Origin: Naegleria gruberi
Lineage: Eukaryota
DNA: 1,104 nt
Reading direction: 5' to 3' (one strand)
Assembly: GCA_000004985.1 (NCBI GenBank)
Contig: GG739558.1
Notes under the pieces: generated by a model
Told to the model about the DNA's origin: nothing
The model's database searches: none
What the model saw: only the letters and a program-made list of their open reading frames with translations
Shown: one piece after another, positions 1 to 1,104 of the stretch
How positions within the stretch are numbered: the stretch's first letter is position 1
Layout of the letters: the number at the start of each line of letters is the position of its first letter
Translations under genes and position numbers: made by a program

Positions 1-807
1 CACCTGACTATTAGATTTGCTTGCTTTGTAAACAACTGATAATCCAGTGTGAAGTGTTTGAATGTTAGTATAATTTGAAAATTGAGTATTTAAAAGTAAA
101 ATAGAGTTTTGAAGTGCAAATACTCTGAATTTTTCTTTTGGTGTCATTGATGATGAAATGACAACACCATCTATTGCTAATGGTTGTTCCATTTCAATAA
201 TAATTTCAGGAAATTTAGGAATCAGCTCCATCAAGTCGTTTTGGATTTCTGATTTTCTTTCGTGCATGTTTGATAATTCCTGAATCATGTCAGAAAGTTT
301 CTTCTCCAATCTTTCAATTTCCTCAACTTTACCAATCTTGTTTCTTTTTTGAGTTTTAATTTCGAATATAAGTGTGTCTTTAGCATATTCAATATCTTCT
401 ATTTTGTCTTTGATTTCAGCTAGTGACTTGAACAAATCTTTCTTTTTCAATTTCAATTTGTTAACATTTTGGAAACATTCAAAATTAACTTCATGTTCTC
501 TCAAACTATTTTCAACTCTTTCAATTTCATTTATCAACTCTCTCTTATCATTATCAAATTCATCCAACTTTCCGCTATAATTTTCAAAAATTAAATCTTC
601 AATTCTGTTTCTTTCTTCAAGTAGCTGATTTAATTCTTTGAATTCAATATTCTTTCCACAAGTGGACATTTCAGAGATTTGTTTTTCAATTCTATTCAAT
701 TCTTTTTTAAGTGAATGAATGGTTTGAGATGCTTTTGGAATTCTCACAACTTGTTTAACATTTGGAATACGAGAAGCTTCTTTAAGTTGATTCTCCAAGC
801 TTTCATT
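1..807 (-). CDS. Exon 3 (3'-most in window) of a partial coiled-coil protein gene. It runs 269 codons to the window edge with no stop. The translation begins NESLENQLKEASRIPNVKQVVRIPKASQTIHSLKKELNRIEKQISEMSTCGKNIEFKELNQLLEERNRIEDLIFENYSGKLDEFDNDKRELINEIERVENSLREHEVNFECFQNVNKLKLKKKDLFKSLAEIKDKIEDIEYAKDTLIFEIKTQKRNKIGKVEEIERLEKKLSDMIQELSNMHERKSEIQNDLMELIPKFPEIIIEMEQPLAIDGVVISSSMTPKEKFRVFALQ... and ends ...KASKSNSQV.
   Basis: Manual reverse-complement translation gives an 807-nt open frame with no stop on the minus strand, in DNA that is about 72% A+T, where chance stop codons are frequent. The composition is K/E/L/I/N/R-rich with a heptad-like pattern typical of a coiled coil. Codon usage (GAA, AAA, ATT, TTG/CTT, GGA, CCA) fits Caenorhabditis-like nematodes. 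Upstream in the same frame there is a stop at 817..819 (+ coordinates), which matches an intron boundary at 807/808. The frame continues off the window at position 1. Confidence 0.8.
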
Positions 808-844
808 CTTTAAAAATTATTAATAGTAGGTATGTAAAACAAAC
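808..844 (-). other. Intron (37 nt) of the minus-strand gene. On the minus strand it reads GTTTGTTTTACATACCTACTATTAATAATTTTTAAAG, with donor AAG|GTTTGT and acceptor TTTTTAAAG|AAT.
   Basis: Reading through from the upstream exon in frame hits TGA at + 803..805. Removing these 37 nt joins two long in-frame coiled-coil-like segments: ...RTLCEK | NESLENQLK.... GT and AG dinucleotides sit at the boundaries. The intron is very AT-rich (about 19% GC). Its length of 37 (3n+1) gives the frame shift that is needed. Confidence 0.55.
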
Positions 845-982
845 CTTTTCACAAAGAGTTCTGATAGTCTTTTCTTGCTCACTCAAGTTGTACTCATTCA
901 CTTTCAACAATTTCTCCAAATGTTGAATTCGTAATTGTGAGATTTTATCCTTTAATTCATCCAAAGTATATTCGAGATTGAA
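845..982 (-). CDS. Exon 2 of the coiled-coil protein gene, 46 codons in phase 0: FNLEYTLDELKDKISQLRIQHLEKLLKVNEYNLSEQEKTIRTLCEK.
   Basis: This is a 138-nt open segment in frame. It follows an AG acceptor (ccaatattag|TTC) and precedes a GT donor. The coiled-coil-like composition continues, and both splice phases are consistent (phase 0 at both ends). Confidence 0.7.
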
Positions 983-1027
983 CTAATATTGGACTATATT
1001 TGACACTTATCTGAAAACTAAACTTAC
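983..1027 (-). other. Intron (45 nt) of the minus-strand gene. On the minus strand it reads GTAAGTTTAGTTTTCAGATAAGTGTCAAATATAGTCCAATATTAG.
   Basis: A consensus GTAAGTT donor follows the codon AAA directly (exon ends at + 1028). All three frames downstream of the internal TTTTCAG reach a stop. The coding frame itself has TAA and TAG inside this segment. The intron therefore has to run to the AG at + 983..984, after which the frame reads TTC AAT CTC GAA... in phase 0. A length of 45 nt is typical of small nematode introns. Confidence 0.6.
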
Positions 1028-1104
1028 TTTCGGTTTGATTTTTTTATCATATTCTTTTCTTTCTTCTTTTCCTATTCGAGCATTCTTGGCAAGTAATAAT
1101 TTTA
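1028..1104 (-). CDS. Exon 1 in this window (5'-most), partial: 2 nt plus 25 codons, KLLLAKNARIGKEERKEYDKKIKPK. The frame is open to the window edge.
   Basis: The frame is open from the window edge to a GTAAGTT donor that sits exactly on a codon boundary. The K/E/R-rich composition matches the downstream exons. On the + strand the (GAA)n-like purine-rich coding appears as a polypyrimidine run at 1053..1073. Confidence 0.55.

What the first reader, a model, noticed from the sequence alone, without database searches (positions are those of the whole stretch)
1..1104. Multi-exon coiled-coil gene on the minus strand that the ORF track does not show
The supplied six-frame track lists only a 68-aa low-complexity ORF on the + strand. 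Hand translation of the minus strand instead shows about 340 codons of coherent K/E/I/L-rich coding sequence in three exons, joined by two tiny GT..AG introns. The whole window is gene body of one large coiled-coil protein that enters and leaves the window in open frame. This corrects the naive picture of 'one small ORF'. I cannot name the protein family. It has long heptad-like arms followed by a non-coiled segment (PLAIDGVVISSSMTPKEKFRVFALQNSILLLNTQ...). That layout would fit an SMC/Rad50-like, kinetochore, golgin or cytoskeletal coiled-coil protein. No diagnostic motif is present.
Basis: seen in the sequence. Interest (0 to 1): 0.5.

Follow-up and report, generated by a model that had tools for sequence, protein, structure and literature searches.

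The report
Coiled-coil linker of Naegleria kinase-HECT gene

Summary
The minus strand carries 340 stop-free codons in three exons (1102..1028, 982..845, 807..1). They are joined by two phase-0 GT..AG introns of 45 and 37 nt.

The window is a whole 1104-bp Naegleria gruberi scaffold. Its exon 2 + exon 3 product is the GenBank entry XP_002667962.1, "predicted protein, partial".

Exon 1 and the last 147 codons are 100% identical to NAEGRDRAFT_75175 (977 aa, on a 207-kb scaffold). That protein has ankyrin repeats, a coiled coil, a Ser/Thr kinase domain and a divergent HECT domain.

So this is a linker in a signalling enzyme. It is not an SMC, golgin or kinetochore protein, and the organism is not a nematode.

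One small correction emerges. Model 75175 splices out 168 codons (1027..442). These are open, show 3-base periodicity and are 68% identical to a paralog's annotated protein, so a 1145-aa product is more likely.

Kinase-bearing divergent HECT proteins in N. gruberi were already noted in 2013. Interest is low.

The parts
1028..1104 (-). Exon 1. It runs off the window's right edge and includes 2 bases of a split codon. It encodes KLLLAKNARIGKEERKEYDKKIKPK, which is the end of the last ankyrin repeat plus a basic linker.
   Evidence: Identical to residues 145-169 of P0002/NAEGRDRAFT_75175, which lie at the end of its Pfam Ank region. Relative L001 has ...EIVKLLLSNKAHIGEQEKQAYKNNLKHN at the same place.
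983..1027 (-). Intron 1: 45 nt, GTAAGT...TTAG, phase 0, with in-frame stops.
   Evidence: The donor is used by public model 75175. The acceptor is where public partial model P0001 begins, at base 982. A 60-nt phase-0 GTAAGT intron sits at exactly the aligned position in the ~50%-identical environmental relative L001, at 322..381.
845..982 (-). Exon 2: 46 codons, FNLEYTLDELKDKISQLRIQHLEKLL...TLCEK, coiled coil.
   Evidence: Open frame. Included in public model XP_002667962.1. There is no independent homolog support: the paralog model starts downstream and identity to N. lovaniensis is 15%. Its 3-base periodicity is not significant on its own.
808..844 (-). Intron 2: 37 nt, GTTTGT...AAAG, phase 0, 19% GC.
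   Evidence: It is spliced identically in public model XP_002667962.1 (...TLCEK|NESLEN...). Reading through it shifts the frame into a stop.
1..807 (-). Exon 3: 269 codons, running off the window's left edge. It encodes coiled coil, then a pre-kinase segment, then the start of the kinase domain.
   Evidence: Paralog P0004 aligns colinearly from EASRI (780) onward at 65-68% identity. The last 147 codons are 100% identical to P0002 170-316.
223..964 (-). Alpha-helical, heptad-periodic coiled-coil stalk, about 235 residues, interrupted by intron 2 and by short breaks.
   Evidence: AlphaFold helices map to window 964-772, 738-661, 642-340 and 327-223. The heptad contrast and 3.5-residue periodicity exceed shuffles.
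94..222 (-). Family-specific conserved pre-kinase segment: IPKFPEIIIEMEQPLAIDGVVISSSMTPKEKFRVFALQNSILL.
   Evidence: Conserved in P0004, P0005 and the environmental P0003. Invariant residues are P, E, E, Q, K, A and L. There is no Pfam or PDB match. The structure models have low confidence here.
1..93 (-). Start of the protein kinase domain (beta1-beta3): LNTQFSNYTNIQTLHTGLSVVYKASKSNSQV. The glycine-rich loop is degenerate. The window ends just before the VILK (VAIK) lysine.
   Evidence: phmmer alignment to solved kinases starts here (9gmp, STK10, NEK1; E ~1e-22 for the whole domain). The Pfam Pkinase match in P0002 is 303-550, E 1.4e-41. H, G, L, S, V, N, Q and VILK are invariant in four relatives.
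442..1027 (-). The 586-nt 'intron' of public model NAEGRDRAFT_75175. It uses the same donor as intron 1 and an AG acceptor at 443..442. It removes exon 2 and the first 122 codons of exon 3, and is probably a mis-prediction.
   Evidence: P0002 joins ...KIKPK directly to KDLFKSL. The skipped part of exon 3 is open, shows 3-base periodicity (p = 0.001) and is 68% identical (77/113) to the annotated paralog protein P0004.
374..580 (+). 68-aa S/L/F-rich ORF, a shadow ORF antisense to exon 3. It is not a gene.
   Evidence: No Pfam match. It lies wholly inside the conserved coding region of the opposite strand.

Best explanation
Identity of the window. It is a complete 1104-bp scaffold of the Naegleria gruberi NEG-M assembly. 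It holds an internal piece of one protein-coding gene on the minus strand.

What the exons encode. The three exons encode, in order:
- the end of the last ankyrin repeat;
- an alpha-helical coiled-coil stalk of about 235-260 residues;
- a conserved family-specific pre-kinase segment of about 45 residues;
- the first strands of a Ser/Thr protein kinase domain.

Relation to the annotated gene. This is the same gene as NAEGRDRAFT_75175 on a 207-kb scaffold, or an allelic or redundant copy of it. The full product is ankyrin repeats, coiled coil, kinase and a divergent G2E3-like HECT domain. It is about 1145 aa when the window's exons are used in place of that model's long intron.

Inferred mechanism (not shown). 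The coiled coil acts as a spacer and probable dimerisation stalk. It holds the ankyrin partner-binding module at a distance from the catalytic half. The catalytic half may couple phosphorylation with HECT-type ubiquitin transfer.
For: Source and public models. The only close database protein is 'predicted protein, partial [Naegleria gruberi]' (XP_002667962.1). It is 100% identical and sits on a contig of 1104 bp.

Exhaustive search. An HMMER search of 1.84 billion representatives found only two further relatives. One is NAEGRDRAFT_75175/XP_002669909.1/D2W1D2. The other is a 115-aa environmental fragment.

Identity to 75175. Exon 1 equals P0002 145-169, and codons 194-340 equal P0002 170-316, both at 100%.

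Domains of P0002:
- Ank, E 8e-23.
- Pkinase 303-550, E 1.4e-41.
- HECT 674-960, 38.4 bits against a cut-off of 23.9.

Catalytic residues. In the kinase, VILK, the alpha-C glutamate, HRDLKPQN, DFG and APE are all present. In the HECT C-terminus, the H and C of SHTC are invariant in three relatives. The C-terminal region hits solved HECT domains (HUWE1, TOM1, Rsp5, E6AP) at E 2e-6 to 1e-3.

Family. The N. gruberi paralog P0004 and N. lovaniensis P0005 share the layout. P0005 has an even longer coiled coil.

Coding status of the stalk:
- open frame;
- 3-base periodicity;
- 68% identity to the paralog over the part that model 75175 skips.

Intron 1. Its position is conserved in the environmental relative L001.

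Helices and heptads.

Literature. Grau-Bove et al. [quoted passage not shown]
Against: - No transcript evidence could be consulted, so all junctions rest on sequence logic and gene models.
- Exon 2 has no homolog support.
- The DNA of the 207-kb scaffold was not retrievable. Whether the window is the same locus, an alternative haplotype, a gap-filling piece or a very recent duplicate is therefore open.
- The two public models disagree with each other over 982..442.
- N. lovaniensis has no introns in its stalk; residues 75-1311 are one exon. Introns 1 and 2 are therefore not conserved genus-wide.
- The HECT match is weak. It falls below E 0.01 in Pfam for P0004 and P0005.
- The multi-sequence AlphaFold model of P0002 is too poor to support any fold claim (mean pLDDT 45.7).
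- Dimerisation and catalytic coupling are inference only.
Confidence: 0.85

Rival explanations
1. The public model NAEGRDRAFT_75175 is right. Exon 1 splices directly to base 441 through a 586-nt intron, so window 982..442 (exon 2 and the first 122 codons of exon 3) is non-coding, or is included only in a minor isoform.
For: P0002 as deposited joins KIKPK to KDLFKSL, using GT at 1027 and AG at 443..442, phase 0. The environmental relative L001 has a much shorter linker between the ankyrin repeats and the pre-kinase segment, so a short stalk is viable in the family. Average N. gruberi introns are ~203 nt (PMC8296547), so 586 nt is not absurd.
Against: After removal of the two tiny introns, the 504 nt are entirely open. 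P is about 7e-6 for the 122 codons of exon 3 alone, computed from the stop frequency. The region shows 3-base periodicity (p = 0.001) with the same pattern as the undisputed part. It is 68% identical at protein level to the annotated paralog P0004, the same as the undisputed part at 65%. The other public model, XP_002667962.1, treats it as coding. N. lovaniensis has a ~450-residue stalk.
Confidence: 0.08
2. One reading: the window is the body of a large structural coiled-coil protein such as SMC/Rad50, a kinetochore protein, a golgin or a cytoskeletal protein.
For: About 235 residues are heptad-periodic helix. Pfam finds nothing above threshold in the 340-aa fragment taken alone.
Against: The flanking parts of the same protein are ankyrin repeats upstream and a kinase plus a HECT domain downstream. 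There is no ABC-ATPase head, hinge, GRIP/GRAB or motor domain. The 'non-coiled segment' aligns to kinase beta1-beta3. The stalk is about 260 residues, far shorter than SMC arms.
Confidence: 0.02
3. The window is not a functional gene copy. It is a leftover assembly fragment: a haplotig, a collapsed or duplicated piece, or a recent pseudogenised partial duplicate of the 75175 locus.
For: It is an isolated 1104-bp scaffold whose protein overlaps are 100% identical to a gene placed on a 207-kb scaffold. Naegleria is described as mainly a heterozygous diploid (PMC9928731), which favours stray haplotype contigs.
Against: There are no stops or frameshifts in 340 codons. This does not conflict with the main explanation, because a haplotig still shows the real gene structure. 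It cannot be separated from the 'same locus' reading without the scaffold DNA.
Confidence: 0.4

Closest known systems
NAEGRDRAFT_75175 (XP_002669909.1, UniProt D2W1D2) and XP_002667962.1, Naegleria gruberi predicted proteins
   Same: Protein identity is 100% over every part that both encode. The exon 1 donor is the same, and XP_002667962.1 uses the same intron 2.
   Different: Neither model is complete. XP_002667962.1 lacks exon 1 and everything outside the 1104-bp scaffold. Model 75175 skips 168 codons that the window shows to be open and conserved.
G2E3-like 'GL-Bikonta' divergent HECT proteins with kinase domains (Grau-Bove et al. 2013, PMC3673628)
   Same: [quoted passage not shown]
   Different: I could not check that this particular accession is in their set, because no supplement is held. 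The paper does not describe the ankyrin repeats or the coiled-coil stalk. No function is known.
Coiled-coil-containing kinases such as ROCK, MRCK and citron (from general knowledge, a functional analogy only)
   Same: A long coiled coil serves as a dimerising spacer attached to a Ser/Thr kinase domain.
   Different: In those kinases the coiled coil follows the kinase, and they belong to the AGC group. Here the coil precedes the kinase. The nearest solved kinases are a MAPKK-like protein, STK10 and NEK1, at only E ~1e-22. No homology is claimed.
HACE1 and HECTD1 (ankyrin-repeat HECT ligases, as summarised in PMC3673628)
   Same: N-terminal ankyrin repeats are combined with a C-terminal HECT domain.
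   Different: Those proteins have no kinase and no long coiled coil. The paper places them in other HECT classes (II and VI), not the G2E3-like group.

Membership tests
Spliceosomal GT-AG introns (two, in the window) | GT donor and AG acceptor, with removal restoring one continuous reading frame that cannot be read through | tested here: met
   Introns 1027..983 and 844..808 are both GT..AG and phase 0. Read-through meets stops. Fifty-four other GT..AG combinations also keep the frame open, so the sequence alone does not make the choice unique.
Spliceosomal GT-AG introns (two, in the window) | Independent support: transcripts, or intron position conserved in relatives | tested here: inconclusive
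   The position of intron 1 is conserved in the environmental relative L001. Intron 2 is supported only by a public gene model. N. lovaniensis has no intron in this region. No transcript data were available.
Coiled-coil protein segment | Long alpha-helices with heptad (a/d) hydrophobic periodicity | tested here: met
   AlphaFold helices of 26-101 residues. The a/d contrast is 0.475 against 0.277 +/- 0.03 in shuffles, and power at 3.5 residues exceeds the 95th percentile. Oligomeric state was not tested.
SMC/Rad50-type proteins | ABC-ATPase head halves at both ends, with a hinge or zinc hook in the middle of very long arms | tested here: not met
   Pfam on the full-length P0002 finds only Ank, Pkinase and HECT families.
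Protein kinase superfamily (Pfam PF00069) | Pkinase profile match above the gathering score in the full protein | tested here: met
   P0002 303-550 scores 143 bits against a cut-off of 31.7. Only the first ~31 residues of the domain (window 93..1) lie inside the window.
Protein kinase superfamily (Pfam PF00069) | Catalytic residues: GxGxxG loop, VAIK Lys, alpha-C Glu, HRD, DFG, APE | tested here: inconclusive
   VILK, NEI (Glu), HRDLKPQN, DFG and APE are present. The glycine loop is degenerate: LHTGLSVVY has a single Gly, conserved in four relatives. Activity is untested.
HECT ubiquitin ligases (Pfam PF00632) | HECT profile match above the gathering score | tested here: met
   P0002 674-960 scores 38.4 bits against 23.9, covering profile positions 20-291 of 306. 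PDB HECT domains hit at E 2e-6 to 1e-3. Relatives P0004 and P0005 do not reach E 0.01. The domain lies outside the window.
HECT ubiquitin ligases (Pfam PF00632) | Catalytic cysteine in the C-lobe, about 35 residues from the C-terminus | tested here: inconclusive
   The Cys of SHTCSFVFDIP is invariant in P0002, P0004 and P0005 and sits 36 residues from the end. However, HMMER's alignment to HUWE1 places it differently. The structure model is too poor to decide.
Ankyrin repeat proteins | Ank profile matches upstream, running into window exon 1 | tested here: met
   Ank_2, Ank and Ank_3 match in P0002 10-150. Exon 1 begins in ...NIVKLLLAKNA, the second helix of the last repeat.

The most novel reading that the evidence does not exclude
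The gene encodes a self-contained 'phosphorylate-then-ubiquitinate' enzyme. An active Ser/Thr kinase and an active, highly divergent HECT ligase share one chain, dimerised by the coiled-coil stalk encoded in this window. The ankyrin repeats select the substrate. Stalk length could be varied by alternative use of the 982 or 441 acceptor, or it varies between paralogs, and this would set the reach between the recognition and catalytic modules.
Probability: 0.15. Interest if true: 0.5.

Novelty: already known. Interest (0 to 1): 0.15.

Why it matters
Practical value. A prokaryote-style ORF track is blind to a spliced eukaryotic gene that runs off both ends of a short contig. Here, two deposited N. 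gruberi gene models are each incomplete, and merging them gives a likely 1145-aa product.

Biological value. The kinase-HECT combination is curious. It has already been noted in the literature, it is uncharacterised, and it lies mostly outside this window. The window itself holds only a linker.

Tried and rejected
- Pfam and PDB sequence searches of the 340-aa fragment alone gave only sub-threshold coiled-coil noise.
- The first word-indexed homology search returned only the self hit. It missed the 977-aa protein, which the exhaustive HMMER search then found.
- Fetching the genomic DNA of the N. gruberi models P0001, P0002 and P0004 failed, as none is on record. The window could therefore not be aligned to the 207-kb scaffold.
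- A metagenome scan with the conserved pre-kinase profile found no relatives.
- Single-sequence AlphaFold of P0001 gave helices but no confident fold for the C-terminal segment.
- The 3-sequence AlphaFold model of P0002 had mean pLDDT 45.7, so I ran no fold search on it.
- Rfam (E-value mode) gave two chance-level hits far below gathering scores. ARAGORN found no tRNA.
- Tandem Repeats Finder found nothing meaningful in the window.
- No paper cites the accessions, and no supplement of the HECT survey is held. The N. gruberi genome paper is not held either.
- I considered non-standard genetic codes and a nematode origin because of the AT-richness and the TTTTCAG motif. I dropped both once the 100% Naegleria match appeared.
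Full report
**Observation**

The window is 28% GC. On the minus strand, frame-by-frame translation shows three open stretches. Two short GT..AG introns join them:
- Exon 1: 1102..1028, 25 codons.
- Intron 1: 1027..983, 45 nt, GTAAGT...TTAG.
- Exon 2: 982..845, 46 codons.
- Intron 2: 844..808, 37 nt.
- Exon 3: 807..1, 269 codons.

Both introns are phase 0, and the product is 340 aa without a stop.

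Neither intron can be read through. Intron 1 carries in-frame stops, and intron 2 shifts the frame into a stop.

The open frame is far beyond chance. The longest stop-free run is 272 codons, against 78.6 +/- 18.7 (maximum 176) in 2000 Markov simulations. P is about 4e-12 for 269 open codons at this base composition.

The ORF track shows only the 68-aa + strand ORF at 374..580. The reason is that ORFs running off the ends of the source are not listed. That ORF is an antisense shadow of exon 3 and has no family match.

**Source and public annotation**

A homology search with the 340-aa product returned one protein: 'predicted protein, partial [Naegleria gruberi]'. It is 314 aa, 100% identical, and on a contig of exactly 1104 bp. 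Its accessions are XP_002667962.1 and EFC35218.1. The window is therefore an entire small scaffold of the N. gruberi NEG-M assembly.

That public model is exon 2 + exon 3 with the same intron 2.

An exhaustive HMMER search of 1.84 billion representatives found only two more relatives:
- P0002, 977 aa. This is NAEGRDRAFT_75175 / XP_002669909.1 / UniProt D2W1D2, on a 207,235-bp N. gruberi scaffold.
- P0003, a 115-aa fragment from a 957-bp ENA metagenome contig.

**What the gene is**

P0002 has the following Pfam matches:
- Ankyrin repeats, residues 10-150.
- A protein kinase domain, residues 303-550, E 1.4e-41.
- A HECT domain, residues 674-960, 38.4 bits against a cut-off of 23.9.

The window's exon 1 peptide is identical to P0002 145-169. 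This is the end of the last ankyrin repeat (NIV|KLLLAKNA...) plus a basic linker. Window codons 194-340 are identical to P0002 170-316. After the window's last codon, P0002 continues VILKEISL...HRDLKPQN...DFG...APE.

1. A family-specific conserved segment, IPKFPEIIIEMEQ...MTPKEKFRVFALQNSILL, at window 222..94. It is conserved in the paralog, in N. lovaniensis and in the environmental fragment.
2. The first strands of the kinase N-lobe, at window 93..1. These align to solved kinases: a MAPKK-like protein (9gmp), STK10 and NEK1, at E ~1e-22 for the whole domain.

The glycine-rich loop is degenerate (LHTGLSVVYKA, one Gly) and is conserved in that form in all four relatives.

The C-terminal region hits solved HECT domains of HUWE1, TOM1, Rsp5 and E6AP at E 2e-6 to 1e-3. 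It keeps an invariant His and Cys (SHTC) 36 residues from the end.

**The stalk**

Between the ankyrin end and the pre-kinase segment lie about 235-260 residues rich in K, E, L and I. AlphaFold on the single sequence predicts helices covering window 964-772, 738-661, 642-340 and 327-223, with block pLDDT mostly 60-88.

A register-scanning test gives an a/d hydrophobic contrast of 0.475, against 0.277 +/- 0.03 for shuffles. The 3.5-residue periodicity exceeds the 95th percentile of shuffles. 'Coiled coil' is therefore supported. Its oligomeric state is not tested.

**Conflict between the two public models**

Model 75175 uses the same donor (GT at 1027) but splices to an AG at 443..442. This removes 586 nt, which is both small introns plus 168 codons. 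Four lines of evidence say the removed codons are coding:
- They are open. From the stop frequency, P is about 7e-6 for the 122 exon-3 codons alone.
- Exon 3a (807..442) has significant 3-base periodicity (p = 0.001), with the same pattern as the undisputed exon 3b.
- The N. gruberi paralog P0004 (828 aa, same 207-kb scaffold) aligns colinearly from EASRI (780) onward. It is 68% identical (77/113) over the skipped part, against 65% over the undisputed part.
- The N. lovaniensis relative P0005 (1311 aa) has an even longer stalk.

Merging the models gives a 1145-aa product.

Exon 2 is the weakest element. It is open and is in one public model, but it has no homolog support, and its periodicity is not significant on its own.

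**Intron conservation**

In the environmental relative L001, the aligned sequence ...AYKNNLKHN is followed by a 60-nt GTAAGT...CAG phase-0 intron. This is exactly the position of window intron 1 (...EYDKKIKPK|GTAAGT). That supports the donor.

In N. lovaniensis, residues 75-1311 are one exon. The two introns are therefore not conserved across the genus.

For context, N. gruberi averages 1.7 exons per gene and 203-nt introns at 33% GC (PMC8296547). Two introns of 37-45 nt are on the short side, but the public model already accepts one of them.

**Mechanism**

Shown:
- the exon structure;
- the identity of the gene;
- the domain order Ank, coiled coil, kinase, HECT;
- the helical, heptad-periodic nature of the window's product;
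- the kinase start at the window's end.

Inferred:
- the stalk is a spacer and probable dimerisation element between the ankyrin partner-binding module and the catalytic half;
- the kinase is probably active, since all catalytic motifs except the glycine loop are intact;
- the HECT domain may be active, since a candidate catalytic Cys is conserved;
- the two activities may be coupled on a common substrate.

None of the inferred points can be tested with these tools.

**Comparison with what is known**

Grau-Bove et al. [quoted passage not shown] I could not verify that this accession is in their set, and no paper cites the accessions.

The SMC/Rad50, golgin and kinetochore ideas fail on domain content. 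Coiled-coil kinases such as ROCK are only a loose functional analogy, drawn from my own knowledge.

**What remains open**

I could not retrieve the 207-kb scaffold DNA. Whether the window is the same locus (for example, sequence missing from a gap), an alternative haplotype (Naegleria is described as mainly heterozygous diploid; PMC9928731) or a very recent duplicate is therefore unresolved. No transcript data were available.

**Verdict**

- Novelty: already known. The gene is annotated and the family has been noted in the literature. The by-product is a modest gene-model correction.
- Interest is low.

Noticed in passing
L001 63..201: The environmental relative carries three tandem copies (94% matches) of a 47-nt intron-like unit. 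Each unit contains GTAAGT...TTTGAGTAG. The array sits inside an ankyrin repeat, between ...GIDVNK and TPLYAACNGG. It looks like a tandemly triplicated short intron.
   Followed up: partly
L001 ~540..600: The reading frame of the relative shifts from frame 0 (68-aa ORF...ELITEHKQKIEEKE) to frame 2 (P0003) around an A-rich run. This could be an assembly indel or another very small intron.
   Followed up: no
P0004 (N. gruberi paralog, same 207-kb scaffold), residues ~380-390: The paralog's model jumps from HRDLKPQNILVNENG straight to DYFTNENP, so it lacks DFG through APE. Pfam matches only positions 13-136 of the 263-position kinase profile. Either another gene-model error or a truncated, inactive kinase. 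Its model also lacks the ankyrin repeats.
   Followed up: partly
L002 3223..4069 (N. lovaniensis C9374_012926): The deposited model has one 847-nt intron inside the ankyrin region. It is followed by FVSIIDLIFKIYSFQ, which looks like translated intron. L001 has an intron at this same repeat position. The N. lovaniensis model may miss ankyrin exons.
   Followed up: partly
window 54..22 (minus strand) and relatives: The kinase glycine-rich loop is degenerate (LHTGLSVVYKA, one Gly instead of GxGxxG). It is conserved in this form in P0004, P0005 and P0003. The best solved match (9gmp, MAPKK-like) also lacks the canonical glycines in the aligned stretch.
   Followed up: partly
window 374..580 (+): This 68-aa S/L/F-rich ORF is the only complete ORF of 60 aa or more. 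It is the antisense shadow of K/E/I/L-rich exon 3 and has no Pfam match.
   Followed up: yes
window 467..484 and 705..816 (+): Two Rfam hits fall far below gathering scores: CRISPR-DR22 at 19.2 bits against 50, and MIR166 at 19.1 bits against 60. Both are chance matches in AT-rich coding sequence.
   Followed up: yes
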